Shown one piece after another: positions 25,546-46,440 of a DNA stretch of 64,000 bases (within the stretch, counting starts at the first letter, position 1; each line of letters begins with the position of its first letter). This DNA comes from the human T2T-CHM13v2.0 reference genome, Homo sapiens. The stretch is taken from assembly GCA_009914755.4 (NCBI GenBank), contig CP068257.2, positions 28,992,001-29,056,000 on the forward strand. Reading direction: 5' to 3'. The notes under the pieces were generated by a model that did not search any database, had not been told where the DNA came from, and was given only the letters and a program-made list of their open reading frames with translations. Position numbers and translations under genes: made by a program.

Positions 25546-27029
25546 AACCAGTGATAGATCATCTTTTTAACAAATGGTGCTGGAACAACTGGACATTTGT
25601 ATGCAAAAACATAAGTTTAGACACAGACCTTATAAACTTCACAAAAATTAACTCAAAATGGGTCATGGGACAAAATAACATGCAAAACTATAAAACTGCT
25701 AGAATATAACATAGGAGAAAATCTAGATGGCCTGGAGTTTGACAATGCCTTTTTAGTTATGAAACCAAAGGCATAATCTAAGAAAGTAAAATTTGATAAG
25801 CTAGACTTACTTAAAATTAAAAAAAAGTTTTTTCTGCAAAAGACACTATAAAGAGAATGAAAAGACAAGCCACAGACTGGGAAAGAAGTCTTTGCAAAAG
25901 ACTTACGTGATAACGTACTATTATCCAAAATATACAGGAAATTATTAGGACTCAACAATAAGAGACTAAACAACCTGATTTTAAAAGTGAGCCAAGACTT
26001 TAACAAACACCTCACTAAAGAAGATTTACAAATGGCAAAGAAGCAGATGAAAAAAATGCTCCATATCATATGTCATAAGGATAATGCCAATTAAAGCAGC
26101 AAAAAAGATACTGCTACACACCTATTGGAAAGGTTGAAACACAGAACACCAACAAAACTAAACCCTGACGGAAATGAGGAGCAACAGGAAGGTTCATTCA
26201 TTGCTGGTGAGAATTCAAACTGATATAGCAACTTCATAAGACACTCTGGCAGTTTTTTATATAACTAAATATACCCTTATTTTATGATCCAGCAATTGCA
26301 CTCCTTGTTATTTACCCAAATGAGTTGAAAACATGTCCACACCAAAACCTACACATAGATGTTTGTGGTAGCTTTATTCATAGTTGCCAAAACTTGGAAG
26401 CAACCAAAATGTCTTTTAGTGGGCGAATTGATAAATAAAACAGTGGAACATTCAGACAGTGGAGTATTATTCAACACACAAATGAAATGAGAGCCATGAA
26501 GAGACATGGAGGAAACTTACATTCATATTACTAAGTAAAAGAAGCCAATATAAAAAAGTTGTAAACTGTATGTTTCCAACTATATGGCATTCTCATAAAG
26601 GAAGAACATAAAGGAAGAACAGAGAAGAGAGAGAGATAAATAGGTGGAGGACAAAGGATTTTTTAGAACACTGAAAATACTCAGTATATTAATATAATGG
26701 TTGATACATTTGTCAAAGTTTATAGAATGTGCAAGAGCACAGGTGAACGCTTATGTTAAATATGGACATTAGATGATAATGATGTATCCATGTAGGTTCA
26801 TGGAGTGCCACAAATGTACATCTGGTTGAAGGCATGAGGGAGGCTTTGCATGTATTAGGGCAAGAGATATTTAGGAAATTGTGTATTTCCTCCTCAATTT
26901 TATAGTGAATTAAATCTGCTTTAAAAAATGGACTTGTAAACACAACTAAAACAACTTTTTAAAATAATTAGGAATTTTTAACTACTTCATTAGGGATGTA
27001 AAGAAAATATTAATGTTACCAGCAAACTG

Positions 27030-27292
27030 TCACAAGGACAAAAATCAAACACCGCATGTTCTCACTCAGAGGTGGGAATTGAACAATGGGAACACTTGGA
27101 CAGAGGAAGGGGAACATCACACACCGGGGCGTGTCATGGGGTGGGGGGAGGGAGGAGGGATGGCATTAAGAGATATACCTAATGTAAATGATGAGTTAAT
27201 GGGTGCAGCACACCAAAATGACACATGCATACATTTGTAACAAACCTGCACATTGTGCACATGTACCCTAGAACTTAAAGTATAATAAAAAA
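27030..27292 (+). mobile_element. L1PA 3' end fragment (about 260 bp), sense
   Basis: caaacaccgcatgttctcactcagaggtgggaattgaacaatgggaacacttggaca...ccctagaacttaaagtataataaaaaaag. Confidence 0.8.
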
Positions 27293-29949
27293 AGAAAATA
27301 TTAATATTGCTATTATAATAAGAAAATGCCCTTAGTTTTAGAGATGCATAATGAACTATCTCGAAATATGAAATATCACAATATTTGTGATTTATTTTTA
27401 ATATTTCAGAAAAATGATGGTCAAGCATTTCAAAATGCTAATGAGTGTTAAAACAAGGTAGTAAATAAAAAGGAGCATGGTATTCTATTTTTCTGCTAAT
27501 TAAAAGTTTTATAATGAAAAGTTTATAAAGCATAGCAAAAGGAGAGGGCATTCATGAACGAGATAAAATGAGCAACAAGTCATGAGTGGGACTATTCACG
27601 TCCTAGCCACAGATTCATAAAACCTTTACTGAAGCTGAGGATTTGAGAAAAAGATTCACGAGAGCTAAACTGGAAAAGGTAGACATGAGCTATCATTACT
27701 GAAGACCTACATCTGTGAGGATTACATTTCCAAAAAAGACGATGGGGGAAGGTGAATCATCATGGAATTTTGAGCAGTGAGATTTTTCATTTGTTGGGTT
27801 GGCTTGGTTTAATTTTCTTAAAAAGATTAAATAGCTTATGGGTTAGTGAAATGAATCATGAAGAAAAAATACAAAGTAGGAGAAGAATTAAGAGATTGCT
27901 CAAAGGACCTAGTATGTATTTATTGAAGCAGAGGCTAGGGAAATATGAATCAAGAGAAGAATGGAAAGACATCAAAGATAAATTAATGGGGCTCAGACAT
28001 GAGAAGGCATGGGGATAACAAATAAAATGTGGCCATAAATTATTTTGAGATTTCAAGCCATTAACCATTGGAGAAAGAAGGGAGAAGGGTGAGGTCAATT
28101 GTCTGCAGCAAGATCTGGTGCCCATAAATAATGAATCTGATTGTAGACAAATGTGAATGTCCTACTGAACAGGGATTCACTATCAGCCACTTGGCTTTGA
28201 AAATTCTGAAAAAGCCTTCAGTTTTGAAACTCTAAAAAGCATTTTACTCTACTCCCTTTTAATCAAACTTTATGTCAACAAGTAGTATTCAATTCCCTTA
28301 TTGTCTGTCATTGTCCTGTAACTTAGATAAAACTGAGAAATATGTGATAAACCATAAAAAGTAATTTTAATTTGAATATGATTGACCAAACATAAAAATC
28401 CCTTACTGAGCAATCATAACTTATTCTTTCTGGAATTTCAAGTGATTTGAATATCCTCTACAATTGTCCTTTTGAATTTTTTAATATTGTACTTATTTGA
28501 TTAATATACTTACTTCTCTTTATATATTTACTAGCTATACCATGCTCCAATCTGGACCAAAAAGATAAATAGGGCATAACCAAGTCTTTTGCATTTCAGA
28601 GGCAGACATATAAAGAAATGATTGCACATGTGTGTGTTAGTTTTCAAAGAGTGGTGTACATAGTGAAAAACAATTAAAAATTGCTTTATGGGATGTTACG
28701 GTAGGCATTATAGGGGCCTGGCTTTTAAAATATTAGAGGATCTTCTGGCATATAAAGCCTTTAAGAACACTCTAGTCTAATGGTATTCCCTATTTTTGTG
28801 TTTTTAGCATACATATCAACTCGGTAGTCCCTCTAACAGACATGATGAGGATCAAGAGATAGCCTCCATTAAGATCATTATAAACATGTCATATAAATTA
28901 AACTTTATCGACTTATATGTGAAGGTTATGTGGTACACAGTGCTATGGTACATACTTATTGAGAACTCATCCTATCCAGAAAGGCAAATTAGTTATCAGA
29001 ACATTAGGAGAGTTCAATATTAAAACTTTGTAAAAAGGAGAGTTATCCAATTAAACTATGAAGTTAGAAATGTCTTCCCAGAGGAAGTAACCAGTCAAAT
29101 TATAGATGCATATGGCTCCAGGTATTTGGACAAAGATAGAGAAGGCACTTTGGCCAAAGAGAAAAGCCCATTGTAGGTAGGAAATAGTATAATGCTAGAA
29201 AAATTTAAAGTAACTCACTATGGTTACAACAGATGAATGGAATGGAATAGGAGCAGCAGCAGTGGTAGCTGAGCTGGCACAGATTTTTTTTAAAAAGCAG
29301 CAATATAAGCATAAAAAATGGTGCACAGGACAAGCATCATGAAAAGAACACTGAAATCAATGGAGATGCCTAGTCTGGTTTGTGGGAAAAGAAGAAAGAA
29401 AAACAGGGGTGGCTACCACACATACTCACCACATCAGTATGTTTCTATTTCCACTCTTTCACAGCTTCTGAATTTTAGAATCCAAGTATGGACATCGGTT
29501 AACTTATTATTTAATAGTTTTCTGTGTTAACAAAATGATTTTTTATTTTATACTAAAAGTTATAGTCTTTCCTTGAAGAATTTTAATTGTAAGTGTGGCA
29601 TACTCAGTTTTGCATTTTAAAAGAACACTATAACTGCTTGTATGTGTTTATGTGGTGTTATGGTAGACAATACCATAGCTCACAATCTATTTCAATAATC
29701 TACCATAAGGTGACAATAAAAACTAAGCTAATGTCTTTGAGGACATAGAATTTATTGGACTTGAATGACAGTGCATTCTCTCATTTAGGTAATATAGGTG
29801 AAGAAAGTGCTAATTTGAGAGTATTTGGGAGACAGAAAAATGCTGAGATGGAAAGTTAACTTTTGAATACATTGAGTTTGAAGTACTTATATATCTAAAT
29901 AGATTTATCAAGAAAGCATTTCCAAGTGATGTCAGCAGGAATGGCAGAA

Positions 29950-31900
29950 TATGGAACTCTGAAAATCTATCCTAAAAAAAATTAAGACATTTTTATATAA
30001 TCATAAACTGAAAGAATCTATAGTTAGCATACCTTCTCTACCAAAAACAAAAACAGAAAAAGACTAAAGAGAGTACTTTAGGCTGCAATAAAAGGACACT
30101 AGATAGTAACTCAAATTCGTATGAAGAAATGAAGAGCACGAGTAAAGGTGACTACACAGGCAAATTAAAAGGCAGTAAAAATGTAAGAGAAATTAGAAAT
30201 ACTTTGATATGAATGAAAACTAAAACACAAAATACCAAAACTTTTGACATGCAGCTAAAACAGTACATAGAGGAAAAGTTATATGTATATAAATACCTAT
30301 ACTTTAAAAATAAAGATATTAAATCAATAATCTAACATTCTAACTTAAGAAAGTAGAAAAGACAACAAGAACTAAATCCACAACTAGCATAAAAAAGGAA
30401 ATCATTATTCGAGTGGAAATAAGTGGAGGACAGTAAATTAATAGAGAAAATCAACAAAACCAAAGTTGATTGTTTCAAAAAAATCAACAAAATGGACAAA
30501 CTTTCAGCTAGACAAACCAAGAAAAAAAAGATTCGAATTACTGAAATAAAAAGTTATTAAGATTGCACATGAAGGGAACGTCACTGACTTACAGAAATAA
30601 AAGGGATTATAAGGGAATATCATAAACAACTTTACATCAACAAATTATATAACTCGTATAAAATAGCTCAATCCCTTGATTGACACAAACTACTGAAATT
30701 AAGTCAAGGAGAAATAGAAATTTGTTTTGATGTATAATAGGTAAATAGATTTAATTAGAAATTTTAAAATTTCCCCCCAAAAAAGCCCAGACTCAGATGG
30801 CTTCACTGTTGAATTCTACCAAATATTTACAGAAGCATTAGCATCAATCTACACAAACTCTTCCAAAAGTTAGAAGACAGAACATTTCCCAGCTCATTCC
30901 ATGAGTCTAGTATAACTCTAATACCAAGACTGGGCAAAAACAGTAGAAAAAAAAGAAACCTAAGACTAATAAGTCTCATGAACTTAGACGAAAAACGGGT
31001 CAACAAATACTAGCAATCCAATTCCACCAATAATATATAAATAACATTTTACACTGTGAACTTTACACAAGTGGGATTTATCACATAAATCTGAGGTTGA
31101 TTCAACAAATAAAATCAAAGAATGTAATACAGCATGTAAATAGGACAAAGGGCAAAAAAAAAAAAAACCCATATGATCATCTCAATAGATGCATAAAAAA
31201 CTCTTGGCAAAAATTCAACACACTTTCATAATAAATTACATTCAACCAAAAAGAAATGGAAGAAAACTTTACAACTTGGCCGGGCGCGGTGGCTCACAGC
31301 TCTCAGTGGAGCTGAGATCGCGCCACTGCACTCCAGTCTGGGCGACAGAGCGAGACTCAAAATCAAAAAAAAAAAAAAAAGAAAAAAGAAAACTTTACAA
31401 CTTGATAATGAGTAGCTATAAAATACCCCACAGCTAACATCAAAGTTAATGTTAAAGCTTTCCCTGTAAGGTCAGGAATAAGATAAAGATGTTCAATTTT
31501 GCCACTTCTATTCAACAAACTACTAGAGATCATAACAAGGGCAATTAGACATAAAACTAAATACAAAGGCACCCAAATTTGGAAAAAAGAGAACTGTCTC
31601 TATTTGTATTAGACATTCTCTTTTATGCAGAAAATTCTAAGAAATATACATACACACACAATTAGAACTGATAAATGAATTCAGTAACATTGCAGGACAC
31701 AAGACAAATACATAAAAATTAATTATTTCTACATACTTTCAGTCAACAATTTGAAAATGAAATTAAGTAAACTGCAATAGCACAAAAAAAGAGTAACATA
31801 CAGATTTTCTTTTTAAAAAAAAGAGTGTAAGACTCACACACTGCGAACTACAAAATATTGCTGAAAGAAATTACAGAAGATTTGTATCATTTATTTGGGT
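29950..31900 (+). mobile_element. Ancient L1M, end of ORF1 into ORF2, sense
   Basis: The translation resembles L1 [29 protein letters not shown]... and HMIISIDAEKAFDKIQH..KTLNKL. It is interrupted by the deleted Alu at 31279-31397. Confidence 0.5.
31279..31397 (+). mobile_element. Internally deleted Alu (about 115 bp) with a perfect 17-bp target-site duplication
   Basis: ggccgggcgcggtggctcacagctctcagtggagctgagatcgcgccactgcactccagtctgggcgacagagcgagactcaaaatcaaaaaaaaaaaaaaaa is flanked by gaaaactttacaacttg on both sides, at 31262-31278 and 31398-31414. Confidence 0.75.
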
Positions 31901-32169
31901 TGGTAATATTAAAAATCCTCTCTTCTAGGTATCTGAAAAAAATACAATAAATTATTGTTTACTATAGTCTCCCGACAGTGCTATAAAACACTAGAACTTA
32001 TTCTTCCTATTTAGCTGTAACTTCGTATTCACCAACCAATCTCTTCCTATCCCTCCTTCTCAGTCTCTAGTAACCACTATTCTACTCCTTACTTCTACTA
32101 GATCAAATTCTTCAACTCCCACGTATAAGTGAGAACATGCAGCATTTATCTTTCTGTTCCTTACTTATT

Positions 32170-32945
32170 TCTCATAACATAATGTCCTTCAGGCTCATTG
32201 ATGTTGCTGTGAATGACCGAATTTTATTATTTTTATGGCTAAATAGTATTTTATTGGGTATATATGTGCCAAATTGTCGTTATCCATACATCTGTTGATG
32301 GACTCTTAGGTTTATTCTATATCTTGGCTATTGTGAATAATGCTGCAATAAACATGGAAGTGCACACATCTCTTCAACCTACTGGTTCCTTTTCTTTGGA
32401 TATATACCCACTAGAGGAATTGCTGGATCATACAGTAGTTCTACTTTTAGCTTTTTGAAGAACCTCTGTACTGTTTTACATAATGACTCTAACAATTTAC
32501 ATTCCCATCAGCAGTATATGAGTTTCCTTTTCTTCACATCCTCACCAGCATTTTTTTAAATCATTTTAATAATAGGGAAAGATGACCATCAGGATTGAGG
32601 TGATGGATATGATAATTACCCAGATTTGATTATTACATGTTGCATGCGTTGATCAAAATATCACACTGTATACCGTAAATATGTACAATTATTACATCTC
32701 AACTAAATATATACATTAAAAATATGGAAGATCTAAATAAATACAAAAATTCCATGTCATGAAGTGGAAGAAAATATTGTTAAAATGGCAATACTTCTCA
32801 AATTGATCTGCAGATTTAACACAATCTCTATCAAAATTCCAGATGTGCATATTATAGAAATTCACAAATTGAATATAAAATTTACATGGAATTGAAAGGT
32901 ACCTGGCATAGCAAAAATAAAAATAAAACTTCAAAAGAAGTTGAA
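32170..32945. mobile_element. Mosaic of old L1 (L1M/L1PB) 3'-region fragments in both orientations
   Basis: 32170-32570 is an antisense L1 ORF2-end/3' UTR-like sequence (ttttatggctaaatagtattttattgggtatatatgtgcc...). 32600-32945 has sense L1-like strings (attacccagatttgattattacatgttgcatgc; ttctcaaattgatctgcagatttaacacaatc). Confidence 0.4.
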
Positions 32946-32947
32946 GT

Positions 32948-33685
32948 CTTGCTATTGTGAATAGTGCTGCAATAAACATACGTGTGCATGTGTCTTTATA
33001 GCAGCATGATTTATAATCCTGCGGGTATATACCCAGTACTGGGATGGCTGGGTCAAATGGTATTTCTAGTTCTAGATCTTTGAGGAATTGCCACACTGTC
33101 TTCCACAATGGTTGAACTAGTTTACAGTCCCATCAACGGTGTAAAGGTGTTCCTATTTCTCCACATCCTCTCCAGCACCTGTTGTTTCCTTTTTAATGAT
33201 TGCCATTCTAACTGGTGTGAGATGGTATCTCATTGTGGTTTTGATTTGCATTTCTCTGATGGCCAGTGATGATGAGCATTTTTTCATGTGTCTGTTGGCT
33301 GCATAAATGTCTTCTTTTGAGAAGTGTCTGTTCATATCCTTTGCCCACTTGTTGATGGGGTTGTTTTTTTCTTGTAAATTTGTTTGAGTTCTTTGTAGAT
33401 TCTGGATATTAGCCCTTTGTCAGATGAGTAGATTGCAAAAATTTTCTCCCGTTCTATAGGTTGCCTGTTCACTCTGATGATAGATTCTTTTTCTGTGCAG
33501 AAGCTCTTTAGTTTAATTAGATCCCATTTGTCAATTTTGGCTTTTGTTGCCATTGCTTTTGGTGTTTTAGACGTGAAGTCCTTGCCCATGCCTATGTCCT
33601 GAATGGTATTGCCTAGGTTTTCTTCTAGGGTTTTTATGATTTTAGGTCTAACATTTAAGTCTTTAATCCATCTTGAATTAATTTC
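32948..33685 (-). mobile_element. Inverted 5' segment of a twin-primed L1PA insertion, antisense ORF2 C-terminus
   Basis: The minus-strand ORFs at 33153-33335 and 33332-33700 are L1 ORF2, for example [11 protein letters not shown]...[21 protein letters not shown] and [32 protein letters not shown]. The segment runs from ..INSRWI.. to ..FTIAK in L1 coordinates. Confidence 0.85.
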
Positions 33686-34112
33686 CCAAATGTCCATCAA
33701 TGATAGACTGGATTAAGAAAATGTGGCACATATACACCTTGGAATACTATGCAGTCATAAAAAAGGATGAGTTCATGTCTTTTGTAGGGACATAGATGAA
33801 GCTGGAAACTATCATTCTTAGCAAACTATAGCAAGGACAAAAAACCTAACACCACATGTTCTCACTCAGAGGTGGGAACAGAACAATGAGAACACTTGGA
33901 CACAGGCAGGGGAACATCACACACCAGGGCCTGTTGAGGGGTGGGGGGAGGGGGGAGGGATAGCACGAGGAGATATACCTAATGTAAATGACAACTTTAT
34001 GAGTGCAGCACACCAACATGGCACATGTGTACATACGTAACAAACCTGCACATTGTGCACATGTACCCTAGAACTTAAAGTATAATAAAAAAATAAAATA
34101 AAAAAATAAAAG
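33686..34112 (+). mobile_element. Direct 3' segment of the same L1PA insertion, sense: ORF2 end, 3' UTR and poly-A
   Basis: ccaaatgtccatcaatgatagactggattaagaaaatgtggcacatatacacc...gtaccctagaacttaaagtataataaaaaaataaaataaaaaaataaaag. A roughly 16-bp target-site duplication AAAAGAAGTTRAAGT flanks the whole composite at 32932-32947 and 34110-34126. Confidence 0.85.
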
Positions 34113-34448
34113 AAGTTAAAGTACTTATACTTCCTTATTCAAAGACTTACCACAAAGCCCCATTAACTATGTGATACTGACATAAGGATAGACATATCAA
34201 TCAGTGGAATAAGGGAAAGTGCCCAGAAACAAACCCTTACATTTATTATCAATTGATTTTTGACAAGAGTGTCAGGACCAATCAATGGGAAAGAATAGGC
34301 TTTTCAACAAATGGTGCTGAAACAACTGGGTAATCATATGCAAATAGGTGGAGTTGGTGTCTATCTCACATCTCACGCCATATGCAAGAATTAACTCAAA
34401 TTTTACCAAAAACCTAAATGTTAGAGCTAAAGTTATAAAACTCCTTAT

Positions 34449-34802
34449 ATTAGTTGTTCTCACACTGCTAATAAAGACATACTCAAGACTGGGTAATTTA
34501 TAAAGCAAAGAGATTTAATGGACTCACAATTCCATACAGCTGGGGAAGCCTCACAACCATGGCCAAAGGCAAAGGAGGAGCAAAGTGAAGTCTTACATGG
34601 TGGCAGGCGAGAGACAGAGAGCATTTGCAGGGGAAGCCCACCTTTTAAAACCATTAGATCTCATGAGACTTATTCACTATCATGAGAACAGCATGGGAAA
34701 AACCTGCCCTCATGATTCAGTTACCTCCCACCACATCCCTCCCACAACATGTGGAGCTACAATTTGAAATTTCGGTGTGGACACAGCCAAACCATATCAT
34801 TC
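34449..34802 (-). mobile_element. MaLR LTR (THE1/MST type), antisense
   Basis: ttgttctcacactgctaataaagacatactcaagactgggtaatttataaagc...cagccaaaccatatcattc. Confidence 0.65.
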
Positions 34803-35831
34803 TTTAAAGAAAACACAGGTGTAAATGTTGATGGCCTGGGAGTTGCCAGTCATTCCTTAGATAGGACAGCAAAGGTACAAGCCACAAAATAAAAAGTAAA
34901 TAAATTGCACTTTATTAAAATTAAAAGCTTTTCTGCTTTAAAGGACCCTATCAACAGAGGGAAAAACAAACAATAGTAAGGTTCCAGAAAGTATCTGCCT
35001 TTCATATATTCTATAAGGAATTTGTAATATAAAATACTCTTACAACTCAAAAATGAACAATATTAAATAGTAGACAAAGGATTTGAACAGACAGTTATTC
35101 AAAGAAGATCTTCACATGGTTAATAAACACATTTAAAAAGCTGCACAACATTATTAGCCCTTAATGAAATACAAATCAAAATCACAATGAGAAAACACTT
35201 CGCATCCAGTAGGACGTGTATAATCAAAATGACAAAGAATAACAAGTATTGGCAAGGATGTGGAGAAATTCAAGGCTTATACATTATTGGTGGGAATAAA
35301 GAATGGTAAAACCACTTAGAGAAACAGTTTGACTGCTCCTCAAAAAATTAACTAAAGAGTTTCCATATGACCCACGATTCCACTCTTAAAGACTTTCACC
35401 CAAAAGAATTGTAAACATATGTCCACACAAAATATTACGTATGAATGTTTGCAGCAGCTTTATTTATAATAGCCAAAAGTAGAAATCATCCAAATGTCCA
35501 TCAATTCATAAATGGATAAACAAAAGTGACAAATTCATATAAGGGAATATTATTAAACCACAAAAAATAATGAAGTACCGATATGTGCTACCATGTGGAT
35601 GAGCAGCAAAAACATGCTAAGTTAAGGAAGCAAGATATAAAATGCCACCTGTTACACAGTTCCATTGCTATGAAATGTCCAAATACTTAGAGACAGAAAA
35701 TAAATTTGTAATGACTAAGGACTGGAGGAAAGTGGGAGTGCAGCATGACTGCTAACAAGTACAGGGTTTCTTTGGCAACTGATGAAAATATTTTAATATT
35801 AGATAGTGGTTATGTTTTAACACCCCTGCAT

Positions 35832-42946: not shown

Positions 42947-45224
42947 TATATGATTTGCCTGTGCCTCCACCCAAATCTTAATTGTAACTTTTATATTTCC
43001 CACATGTCATGGGGAAAAGCCGGTGGGAGGTGATTGAATTATGGGGGCAGGTCTTTCCTGCACTGCTCTCATGACCAGTGAATGCGTCCCATGAAATATG
43101 ATGGTTTTAAAAATGGGAGTTTCCCTGCACAAACTCTCTTCCCTTGTCTGCTGCCATGTGAGACATGCCTTTTACCTTCCACCATGATTGTGAGGTCTCC
43201 CCAGCCACATGGAACTGTAAGTACAATTAAAACCTATTTTTCTTCCCAGTCTCAGGTATGTCTTTATCAGCAGTGTGAAAACAAACTAATAGAGTAAATT
43301 GGTACCAGTAAAGTGAGGTGCTGCTAAAGATACCTGATAGTGTGGAAGCAACTTTGGAACTGGGTAACAGGCAGGGGTTGGAACAGTCAGGAGGGATCAG
43401 AAGAAGACAGGAAAAATGTGGGAAAGTCAGAAACTTCCTAGAGATGTGTTGAATGGCTTTGACAAAGATGATGCTGATAGTGATATGGAAAATAGCATCC
43501 AGGTCGGGGTGGTCTCAGATGGAGATAAGGAACTTGCTGGGAATTGGAGCAGAGGTGACCCTTCTTATGTTTTACAAAGAGACTGGCAGCATTTTGACCC
43601 TGCCCTAGAGATCTGTGGAACTTTGAACTTGAGAGAGATGCTTTAGGGTAACTGTCAGAAGACATTTCTAAGCAGCAAAGCATTCAAGATGTGACTTGGG
43701 TGCTCTTAAAGACATTCAGTTTTAAAAGGGAAGCAGAGCATAAAAGTTTGGAAAATTTGCAGCCTGACAATGAAATAGAAAAGAAAATCCCATTTTCCAA
43801 GGAGAAATTCAAGCTGGCTGCAGAAATTTGCATAAGTAGCAATGAGCTGAATGTTAATCCCCAAGACAATGGGGAAAACATCTCCAGAGCATGTCAAAGG
43901 CCTTCACGGCAGCTCCTCCCATCACAGGCCCAGAGGCCTAGGAAGAAAAAGGTGATTTACTGGGCCAAGCCCAGTGTCTCTGTGCTGTGTGCAACCTAGG
44001 GACTTGGTTCCCTGTGTCCAAGCCACTCTAGCCATGGCTGAAAGGGGCCAATACAGAGCTCAGGCCATGACTTCACAGGGAGCAAGCCTCAAGCCTTGGC
44101 AGCTTCCTGGGGCTGTGAAGCCTACCAGTGCACGGAAATCAAGAATTGAGGTTTGGGAACCTATGCCTGGATTGCTGAGCATGTATGGAAATGCCTGGAT
44201 GTACAGGCAGAAGTTTGTTGCAGGGTCAGGGCACTCATGGAGAACCTCTGCTAAGGCAATATGAAAGGGAAATGTGGGGCCAGAGCCCCCACACAGAGTC
44301 CCTACTGGGGCACCACTGAGTGGAGCTGTGAGAAGAGGGCCAATGTCCTCCAGACCCCAGAATGGTAGATCCACAGACAGCTTGCACCATGTACCTGGAA
44401 AAGCTGCAGACACTAAATGCCAGCCCATGGAAGCAGCCAGGAGGGAGGCTGTACCCTGCAAAGCCACAGGGGCAGTGCTGCCCAAGACCATGGAAACCCA
44501 CCTCTTGCATCAGCAAGACCTGGATGTGAGACATGGAGTCAATGGAGATCATCCTGGAGCTTTAAGATTTAACTGCCTTGCTGGATTTTGGACTTGCGTG
44601 GGGCCTGTAGCCCCTTTGTTTTGGCCAATTTCTCCTATTTGGTATGGCTATATTTACCCAGTGCCTGTACCCCCATTGTGTCTAGGAATTAACTAACTTG
44701 CTTTTGATTTTACAGGCTCATAGGTGGAAGGGACTTGCCTTGTCTCAGATGAGATTGGAATGTGGACTTTTAAGTTAATGCTGAAATGAGTTAAGACTTT
44801 GGGGTACTGTTGGGAAGGCATTATTGGTTTTGGAATGTGAAGACATGGAATTTTGGAGGGGCCAGGGGCAGAATCATAAGGACTGGCTCTGTCCTCACCC
44901 AAATATCATCTTGAATTGTAACTCACACAATTCCCACGTGTCATGGGAGGAAGCCGGTGGGAGGTGATTGAATTATGGGTGCGGGTCTTTCCTGTGTTGC
45001 TCTTGTGATAGTGAATGAGTCTCATGAGATCTGATGGTTTTAAAAACAGGAGTTTCCCTGCACAACTCTCTTCTCTTGTCTGCCACCATGTGAGATGTGC
45101 CTTTTACATTCCACCATGATTACAAGGCCTCTCCAGCCACATGGAACTCTAAGTCCATTAAAACCTCTTTTTCTTTCCAATCTCAGGTATGTCTTTATCA
45201 GCAGAATGAAAACAGACTAATACA
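42947..45224 (+). mobile_element. Full-length ERVL-MaLR element of THE1/MST type: 5' LTR 42947-43291, internal region 43292-44873, 3' LTR 44874-45224, with a 5-bp target-site duplication CCAGG
   Basis: Two about 350-bp direct LTRs (..ccacccaaatct..gggaggtgattgaattatggg..ctcaggtatgtctttatcagcag..actaata.a) bracket a 1.6 kb internal region. CCAGG occurs immediately before the 5' LTR (42942-42946) and after the 3' LTR (45225-45229). The ORFs at 43416-44696 on both strands are degenerate MaLR internal sequence. Confidence 0.8.
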
Positions 45225-45876: not shown

Positions 45877-46440
45877 CATATTAGTCTATTATGTTGCTGA
45901 TAAAGACATACCCAAGACTGGGAAATTTACAAAAGAGGTTTAATAGACTTACAGTTCCTCATGGCTGGGGAGGCCTCACTATCATGGCAGGAAGGCAAGG
46001 AGGAGCAATTCATGTCTTACATGTATGGCAGCAGGCAAAGAGAGAGCTTGTGCAGGGAAATTCCCATTTTTAAAACAATCAGATCTCATGAAACTCATTC
46101 ACTATCACAAGAACAGCACAGGAAAGACCCACACCTATAATTCAATCACCTCCCACAGGGTTCCTCCCATGACACCTGGGAATTGTGGGAGTTACAATTC
46201 AAGATGAAATTTGGGTGGGGGCACAGCCAGACCATATCATTCCACCCTGGACCCTCCCAAATCTCATGTACTCACATTTCAAAACCAATCGTGCCTTCCC
46301 AACAGTCCCCCAAAGTCTTAACCCATTTCAGCATTAACTCAAAAGTCCACAATCCAATATCTTATCTGAGACAAGACAAGCCCCTTCCACCTATGAGCCT
46401 GGATAATCTGAAGCAATAAAACTTCATCAACCACTGCAGT
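45877..46440 (-). mobile_element. Truncated MaLR element, antisense: 3' LTR at 45877-46240 plus about 190 bp of internal sequence
   Basis: The LTR is the reverse complement (catattagtctattatgttgctgataaagacatacccaagactgggaaatttacaaaag...). 46250-46440 is the reverse complement of the 3' end of the internal region of the full element (compare 44700-44870). Confidence 0.65.

What the first reader, a model, noticed from the sequence alone, without database searches (positions are those of the whole stretch)
32932..34126. Second twin-primed L1PA insertion, with an intact ~16-bp target-site duplication, nested in old L1M debris
The inverted segment (32948-33685, antisense) covers L1 ORF2 from ..[11 protein letters not shown].. 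to ..FTIAK. The direct segment (33686-34112) covers ..[14 protein letters not shown].. to the poly-A. These are adjacent L1 coordinates with about 11 bp lost at the junction. The whole composite is flanked by AAAAGAAGTTGAAGTC / AAAAGAAGTTAAAGTA direct repeats, which proves a single retrotransposition event. Two twin-priming events in one 64 kb window is a nice illustration that the mechanism is frequent, reported at about a quarter of human L1 insertions.
Basis: partly seen in the sequence, partly recalled or inferred. Interest (0 to 1): 0.5.

Follow-up and report, generated by a model that had tools for sequence, protein, structure and literature searches.

The report
Ordinary 5'-inverted (twin-primed) L1PA insertion
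This is a decayed 1.17-kb primate L1 retrotransposon copy whose front part was inserted back-to-front in a single event inside a much older L1; it is a well-known and common outcome of L1 insertion and is of no special interest.

Summary
Window 32948-33684 is antisense L1 (ORF2p residues 959-1206). Window 33685-34086 is sense L1 (ORF2p 1211-1275 plus 3'UTR), followed by a degenerate A-tail at 34087-34107. On a full-length L1 reference the arms map to 4983-5732 and 5741-6169, so only 8 nt (GGAACCAA) are missing, or 12-13 nt if the ambiguous GACTT is given to the flank. The join at 33684|33685 is blunt. A 15-nt direct repeat with one mismatch (32933-32947 and 34108-34122) bounds the composite; a match this good occurs by chance about 0.1% of the time. 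Removing the insert and one repeat copy restores a continuous old L1 ORF2 at both protein and DNA level. The inferred first nick is 5'-TTTT/GA. The top-strand 3' end (..GAAGT) is complementary to L1 ACUU exactly where the inverted arm begins. Everything fits twin priming. The direct arm is more diverged than the inverted arm (6.9% against 3.0%). However, both arms share lineage markers with the same reference copies, and strictly private changes do not differ significantly. The subfamily name and cross-primate dating could not be tested. Novelty: already known. Interest: low.

The parts
32749..32932 (+). Left flank: host old L1 (L1M-like) ORF2, about residues 802-862
   Evidence: tblastn with ORF2p gave 32749-32913 = residues 802-857 at 54% identity. 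phmmer against PDB ORF2p placed it at 802-862.
32931..32936 (-). Inferred first-strand nick site: top strand TC|AAAA, bottom strand 5'-TTTT/GA-3'
   Evidence: Read directly. TTTT/G is one of the endonuclease cut-site motifs used in PMC12016303. That a nick occurred here is an inference.
32933..32947 (+). 5' copy of the target-site duplication, AAAAGAAGTTGAAGT
   Evidence: family D1. Chance about 0.1%. A single copy restores host L1 spacing.
32944..32948 (-). Internal priming point. AAGT (the last 4 nt of the duplication) is complementary to L1 ACUU, and C at 32948 is templated by the L1 G of ..GCAAAGACTT..
   Evidence: blastn extends the L1 match through 32944. See also the alignment. The 3' repeat copy is followed by A, not C. 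The priming role is inferred.
32948..33684 (-). Inverted arm: L1 reference about 4983-5728, ORF2p residues 959-1206. It is decayed, with frameshifts, stop codons, and one A missing from the AAA run next to the priming point.
33684..33685 (.). Inversion junction ..GAATTAATTT|CCCAAATG..; a blunt join with no filler bases and no microhomology
   Evidence: The HSPs abut exactly, and the sequence is compared with the contiguous copy at 14380-14500.
33685..34086 (+). Direct arm: L1 reference 5741 to about 6145. ORF2p residues 1211-1275 lie at 33685-33879. The stop codon is destroyed (AATTGA to AACAGA). The 3'UTR follows.
34087..34107 (+). Degenerate poly-A tail, AAAAAAATAAAATAAAAAAAT
34108..34122 (+). 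3' copy of the target-site duplication, AAAAGAAGTTAAAGT (one G/A mismatch)
34123..34440 (+). Right flank: the host old L1 ORF2 continues, about residues 870-975

Best explanation
A single L1 retrotransposition event with a 5' inversion (twin priming) placed a 5'-truncated L1PA copy into an A-rich site within the ORF2 of a much older L1. The steps below are inferred from the sequence. (1) L1 endonuclease nicked the bottom strand at 5'-TTTT/GA, and the T-rich 3' end primed reverse transcription on the poly-A tail. That produced the direct arm, running from the poly-A back to L1 position 5741. (2) The top strand was cut 15 nt downstream. Its 3' end, ..GTTGAAGT, annealed to ACUU inside the same RNA at L1 5729-5732, 8 nt upstream of where the first cDNA ended. 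It primed a second cDNA of about 740 nt that stopped at L1 4983, giving the inverted arm. (3) The two cDNA ends were joined bluntly, probably by end joining, and gap filling duplicated the 15-nt target. The copy has since decayed as neutral DNA and has no function.
For: Shown by tools. The arms are opposite-strand pieces of one L1 with adjacent coordinates: 4983-5732 and 5741-6169, or ORF2p 959-1206 and 1211-1275. The missing 8 nt are present in a contiguous copy in the same window and in the consensus of the fetched full-region L1 copies; the 48 loci contain it by construction of the search pattern. Only the direct arm has an A-tail. A 15-nt repeat with one mismatch bounds the composite, with about 0.1% probability by chance. 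With exactly one repeat copy, the flanks read as continuous old-L1 ORF2: residues 802-862 and 870-928, separated by 20 nt where human L1 has 21. At DNA level the one-copy version aligns to independent L1 copies with 25 gap positions and 191 bits, against 38-40 gap positions and 176 bits for zero or two copies. The L1 match runs 4 nt into the duplication, which is microhomology at the predicted priming site. The nick site matches TTTT/G (PMC12016303). Both arms share lineage-marker variants with the same reference copies (Spearman 0.64, p=1.5e-4). Sizes are typical: inverted arm 737 nt, total about 1165 nt, duplication 15 nt, gap 8 nt. Published germline values are a 751-nt median inverted arm, a 1363-nt median total, a TSD of 10-15 nt, and 46% of cases with arm ends within 20 nt. 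The definition in PMC2837659 is met.
Against: The direct arm is about twice as diverged from same-type consensus as the inverted arm: 27/394 (6.9%) against 22/733 (3.0%), Fisher p=0.003. Four other old individual copies are symmetric. Most young reference copies show the same 3' excess, and strictly private changes are 2.6% against 1.5% (p=0.25). This weakens the objection but does not remove it. The internal junction has no microhomology, which some earlier studies reported for twin priming, although PMC2837659 argues it is not required. The mechanism itself is inferred from the product and cannot be observed in sequence.
Confidence: 0.92

Rival explanations
1. An ordinary 5'-truncated L1PA insertion (L1 4983 to poly-A) later underwent an in-place DNA inversion of its 5' 750 nt, with a small deletion at one breakpoint.
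For: This gives the same topology as twin priming: the Y end lies next to the 5' duplication and the X end next to Z. Sequence from one genome cannot formally exclude it.
Against: One breakpoint would have to fall exactly at the boundary between the L1 and the target-site duplication, leaving the 15-nt repeat intact. There are no inverted repeats at the breakpoints that could mediate recombination. The 4-nt complementarity at the priming point would be a coincidence, with probability about 1/256. 5' inversions arise at insertion in 18-22% of new L1 events.
Confidence: 0.03
2. The two cDNAs came from two different L1 RNAs (dual priming or template switching), or one arm was later overwritten by gene conversion from another L1. 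Either would explain the unequal divergence of the arms.
For: Divergence is 3.0% for the inverted arm and 6.9% for the direct arm, p=0.003. The excess in the direct arm is spread evenly, including its ORF2 part. Dual priming has been proposed (PMC2837659).
Against: Two separate RNAs give no reason for the arm ends to lie 8 nt apart on L1. Dual priming as proposed starts on a poly-A and would leave a poly-T next to the 5' duplication, which is absent. The lineage markers of both arms point to the same reference copies. Strictly private changes are not significantly different (p=0.25). The inverted arm is not unusually close to any nearby L1; it is 94.8% identical to the 14k copy.
Confidence: 0.04
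3. Two independent L1 insertions in opposite orientation happen to abut.
For: None specific. L1-rich regions do accumulate nested insertions, and this host L1 has at least two other inserts.
Against: The inverted piece has no poly-A/T and lacks the last roughly 440 nt of L1. The arm ends coincide to within 8 nt on a 6-kb element. No duplication bounds either arm separately, while one bounds both together.
Confidence: 0.01

Closest known systems
L1 5'-inversion insertions attributed to twin priming (Ostertag and Kazazian 2001, as described in PMC2837659 and PMC12016303)
   Same: [quoted passage not shown] The poly-A is on the noninverted arm only. There is an endonuclease-type nick motif (TTTT/G). 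Arm lengths and duplication length are close to published germline medians. There is microhomology at the junction between the 5' duplication and the inverted arm.
   Different: Nothing material. The internal junction is blunt with 0 nt of microhomology. The two arms differ about two-fold in divergence from consensus, which is not a described feature and is probably a sampling or lineage effect.
The other inverted L1PA in this window (13999-16172, minus strand)
   Same: It has the same architecture: L1 4266-6168 direct abutting 3985-4259 inverted, with a 6-nt gap. It is about 95% identical to the full-length reference.
   Different: It is longer (2.2 kb) and is broken at a different L1 position. 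No convincing flanking duplication was found; the best match was 6 of 7.
Poly(T)-headed L1 insertions: twin-priming variants and 'dual priming' (PMC2837659)
   Same: Second-strand priming during target-primed reverse transcription creates antisense L1 sequence inside a target-site duplication.
   Different: Those loci carry a 5' poly(T) stretch produced by priming on the poly-A. Here the second primer annealed internally at ORF2 codon 1207 or so, and there is no poly(T).

Membership tests
Twin-primed (5'-inverted) L1 insertion | Two abutting fragments of the same L1 in opposite orientation | tested here: met
   32944-33684(-) maps to L1 4983-5732 and 33685-34111(+) maps to L1 5741-6169, and the HSPs abut with no filler. 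ORF2p residues 959-1206 and 1211-1275.
Twin-primed (5'-inverted) L1 insertion | The 3' end of the inverted fragment and the 5' end of the noninverted fragment are adjacent on L1 (small deletion or duplication), and the inverted fragment's 3' end lies next to the 5' target-site duplication | tested here: met
   The gap is 8 nt (GGAACCAA), or 12-13 nt if GACTT is assigned to the flank. The orientation is as predicted.
Twin-primed (5'-inverted) L1 insertion | One target-site duplication bounds the whole composite | tested here: met
   A 15-nt repeat with 1 mismatch. Chance about 0.1%. The empty-site reconstruction works only with a single copy.
Twin-primed (5'-inverted) L1 insertion | A poly-A tail at the 3' end of the noninverted arm only, and an L1 endonuclease-type nick site | tested here: met
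   The A-rich tail is at 34087-34107 and there is no poly-T at 32948. The bottom strand reads 5'-TTTT/GA, and the motif list is in PMC12016303.
Twin-primed (5'-inverted) L1 insertion | Complementarity between the top-strand 3' overhang and the L1 RNA at the internal priming site | tested here: met
   The last 4 nt of the duplication (AAGT) pair with L1 ACUU at 5729-5732. A single case like this has a chance probability of about 1/256.
Twin-primed (5'-inverted) L1 insertion | Both arms derive from one RNA, so they share a source lineage and age | tested here: inconclusive
   The same reference copies share lineage markers in both arms (rho 0.64, p=1.5e-4), and strictly private changes are 1.5% and 2.6% (p=0.25). 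However, total divergence is 3.0% against 6.9% (p=0.003).
Twin-primed (5'-inverted) L1 insertion | The inversion arose at insertion rather than later, so the orthologous empty site and the inverted filled site are the only states found among primates | not testable with these tools
   No primate genomes are available. Exact-product look-ups of junction-spanning ORFs found nothing.
L1PA (primate L1 lineage) | High nucleotide identity to primate L1PA elements over ORF2 and the characteristic 3'UTR | tested here: met
   The arms are 94.9% and 90.4% identical to a full-length L1 with intact ORF1 and ORF2 (L014). At protein level they are 82-90% identical to ORF2p translated from that reference.
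L1PA (primate L1 lineage) | Assignment to a numbered subfamily by curated consensus diagnostic sites | not tested
   No Dfam or Repbase consensus is available. The 3'UTR variants (AATGTAAATGAC, ACACACCRGGGCC, CCCTAGAAC) differ from the L1HS-like copies L027 and L035. From memory they fit roughly L1PA4-7. Divergence of 3-7% fits an intermediate age.
Old mammalian L1 (L1M-type) as host | Flanks are colinear pieces of one strongly diverged L1 ORF2 | tested here: met
   A colinear + strand series of ORF2 residues 273-1248 runs from 30200 to 35601 at 28-55% amino-acid identity. It is continuous across the empty site. The subfamily name was not tested.

The most novel reading that the evidence does not exclude
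The two-fold difference in divergence between the arms is real and reflects something other than sampling. For example, the two cDNAs might have been copied from two different L1 RNAs that met at nearly the same coordinate, or the inverted arm might have been partly overwritten by gene conversion from a younger L1 after insertion.
Probability: 0.04. Interest if true: 0.3.

Novelty: already known. Interest (0 to 1): 0.07.

Why it matters
It matters little. This is a clean example of a mechanism described in 2001 that accounts for roughly a fifth of L1 insertions, sitting in a decayed, non-functional copy. Its practical value is for annotation: the two opposite-strand L1PA fragments and their 15-nt duplication should be merged into a single event. 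The fact that two of the three L1PA insertions in this window are 5'-inverted is not statistically surprising, with a probability of about 0.1 at a 20% rate.

Tried and rejected
(1) Cross-species presence or absence could not be checked. No primate genomes are available, and exact-product look-ups of two junction-spanning ORFs, each with two alternative starts, found nothing. None of the 168 fetched loci is this locus.

(2) The original twin-priming paper (PMC311219) is not held. I took the defining features from PMC2837659 and PMC12016303 instead.

(3) I examined whether the arms differ in age. The total-divergence asymmetry is significant. It shrinks to non-significance for strictly private substitutions, and both arms share markers with the same reference copies. 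I rejected it as evidence for two events, but it is not fully explained.

(4) APOBEC-type editing of one cDNA does not fit. G-to-A changes in L1 sense are 6 of 27 in the direct arm and 5 of 23 in the inverted arm, so there is no skew.

The 15-nt reading with an L1-templated C is more economical.

(6) I looked for a target-site duplication around the 14k inverted element and found none that was convincing.

(7) I did not attempt to name the subfamily beyond a memory-based guess, because no curated consensus was available.

Full report
**What is there.** The window is primate-like and rich in L1. Against solved human L1 ORF2p (8sxt/8uw3 numbering), the reverse-strand segment covers residues 959-1065, 1066-1125 and 1126-1206 in three frames. 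It therefore carries two frameshifts, plus stop codons. The forward-strand segment covers residues 1211-1275, the C-terminus. Only residues 1207-1210 (TWNQ) are missing.

**Nucleotide coordinates.** A BLAST of the composite against its own window found a contiguous L1PA copy at about 14003-15185 that spans the break. In sense it reads ..AATAGCAAAGACTT GAAACCAA CCCAAATGTCC...

- I scanned GTDB genome contigs with a 36-mer spanning the gap and got 48 contaminant contigs, each carrying an L1 that is intact there. Several are full length.
- The reverse complement of L014 has an intact 338-aa ORF1 and a 1275-aa ORF2, and I used it as the coordinate reference.
- On that reference, 32944-33684(-) maps to 4983-5732 and 33685-34111(+) maps to 5741-6169.
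- So 8 nt are absent. The figure is 12-13 nt if the ambiguous GACTT next to the flank is not counted as L1.
- The two HSPs abut exactly at 33684|33685, with no filler and no microhomology.

**Target-site duplication and empty site.** The repeat finder reports AAAAGAAGTTGAAGT (32933-32947) and AAAAGAAGTTAAAGT (34108-34122).

- A 15-mer with at most one mismatch between such flank pairs occurred in 3 of 3000 random position pairs in this window and in 4 of 3000 shuffles.
- I removed the insert and one repeat copy and translated the result. The left flank aligns to ORF2p 802-862 and the right flank to 870-928. Between them lie 20 nt where human L1 has 21 nt, so the flanks are continuous apart from a 1-nt indel.
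- At DNA level the one-copy reconstruction aligns across the junction to independent L1 copies with 25 gap positions and 191 bits. Versions with zero or two copies give 38-40 gap positions and 176 bits.
- tblastn shows the host is one colinear old L1 on the + strand, covering ORF2 residues 273 to 1248 between 30200 and 35601 at 28-55% identity. It is also interrupted at 32127-32522 and at about 34440-34722.

**Signs of the mechanism.**

- The duplication starts with AAAA preceded by TC, so the bottom strand reads 5'-TTTT/GA. TTTT/G is an accepted L1 endonuclease motif (PMC12016303).
- The direct arm ends in a degenerate A-tail (34087-34107). The inverted arm has no poly-T.
- The top-strand end ..GTTGAAGT is complementary to L1 ACUU at exactly the point where the inverted arm begins. 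The next base, C at 32948, matches the L1 G, whereas the 3' repeat copy is followed by A. This is the internal priming microhomology that twin priming predicts.
- One A of the AAA run next to that point is missing. This could be slippage at initiation or a later indel, and I cannot tell which.
[quoted passage not shown] Every element of that definition is met.
- The sizes are typical of germline events: inverted arm 737 nt, total about 1165 nt, duplication 15 nt, gap 8 nt. Published germline values are a 751-nt median inverted arm, a 1363-nt median total, a duplication of 10-15 nt, and 46% of cases with arm ends within 20 nt.

**A complication I examined.** Against a consensus of 14 same-type L1PA copies fetched from metagenome contigs, the inverted arm differs at 22/733 sites (3.0%). 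The direct arm differs at 27/394 sites (6.9%), Fisher p=0.003. Four other old individual copies are symmetric.

- With larger reference sets (47 and 68 copies), 8 differences in each arm are polymorphic lineage markers. The same reference copies carry those markers in both arms (Spearman 0.64, p=1.5e-4).
- Strictly private changes are 11/736 and 10/391, p=0.25.
- Most young reference copies also differ more in the last 400 nt than in ORF2.
- There is no G-to-A skew that would suggest editing of one cDNA.
- I conclude that the asymmetry is mostly lineage and sampling structure. It is not good evidence against a single event, though it is not fully explained.

**Rival explanations.**

- Two independent insertions are effectively excluded. 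The inverted piece has no tail, neither arm has its own duplication, and the arm ends coincide within 8 nt.
- A later in-place inversion gives the same topology. It needs a breakpoint exactly at the boundary between the L1 and the duplication, and it leaves the microhomology as a coincidence. Only orthologous loci could exclude it formally.
- Two-RNA models give no reason for the arm ends to be adjacent, and they predict a poly-T that is absent.

**Context.**

- The window holds three L1PA insertions: this one, a plain 5'-truncated 3' end at 27020-27300, and an element at 13999-16172. The last is also 5'-inverted (L1 4266-6168 and 3985-4259, 6-nt gap) but has no convincing duplication.
- Two inverted insertions out of three is unremarkable at the published 18-22% rate.
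- Among 167 fetched L1 loci, 11 show abutting opposite-strand L1 pieces, two of them with gaps of 3 and 17 nt.

**Age and name.** The arms are 94.9% and 90.4% identical to the intact full-length reference, and 3-7% from same-type consensus. The 3'UTR variants differ from the L1HS-like copies. From memory they fit roughly L1PA4-7. Published ages put L1PA6 to L1PA3 at about 26.8-7.6 Myr (PMC4083085). I could not name the subfamily or check other primates with the tools available.

**Verdict.** This is an already-known, common kind of L1 insertion product, and it is of low interest.

Noticed in passing
window 13999-16172 (minus-strand element): A second 5'-inverted L1PA. L1 reference 4266-6168 on the minus strand abuts 3985-4259 on the plus strand at 15896/15898, with a 6-nt gap and about 95.5% identity to the reference. 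No convincing target-site duplication was found; the best flank match was 6 of 7.
   Followed up: partly
window 32948-33684 compared with 33685-34075: The direct arm is about twice as diverged from same-type L1PA consensus as the inverted arm (6.9% against 3.0%, p=0.003), and half of its changes are transversions, including two dinucleotide changes. This is largely, but not completely, explained by lineage markers and sampling.
   Followed up: yes
loci L001-L048 (GTDB genome contigs), for example L014 = BMRF01000060.1 'Actinomadura cremea JCM 3308', L012 = LZSC01000001.1 'Mycobacterium sp. 1100029.7', and L018, L025, L036: Forty-eight assemblies labelled as bacteria contain primate L1 DNA. Several contain full-length L1 with intact ORF1 and ORF2. 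This is host-DNA contamination of public prokaryotic assemblies.
   Followed up: partly
window 32127-32522: An antisense fragment of another old L1 (ORF2 residues about 1140-1271, 35% identity) is inserted in the host L1 between its residues 795 and 802.
   Followed up: no
window about 34440-34722: A non-L1 insert interrupts the host L1 between ORF2 residues about 975 and 952. From memory it resembles an antisense MaLR (THE1/MST-type) LTR. Positions 34626-34754 are 78% complementary to 44934-45062.
   Followed up: no
window 44751-45065 and 46048-46361: A pair of inverted repeats of about 300 nt, 87-88% complementary and about 1 kb apart. They are probably two related interspersed repeats in opposite orientation.
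   Followed up: no
window 27020-27300: A short, plain 5'-truncated L1PA 3' end of 284 nt (L1 reference 5875-6158, 89% identity) on the + strand.
   Followed up: no
loci L161 (30-287) and L055 (9532-9819): Other contigs carry L1 copies with the same inverted signature, with gaps of 3 nt and 17 nt. Nine further loci have abutting opposite-strand L1 pieces with larger gaps or overlaps, and some of these may be assembly chimeras.
   Followed up: partly
window about 33877-33882: The ORF2 stop codon of the direct arm is destroyed by a TT-to-CA dinucleotide change (AATTGA to AACAGA).
   Followed up: no
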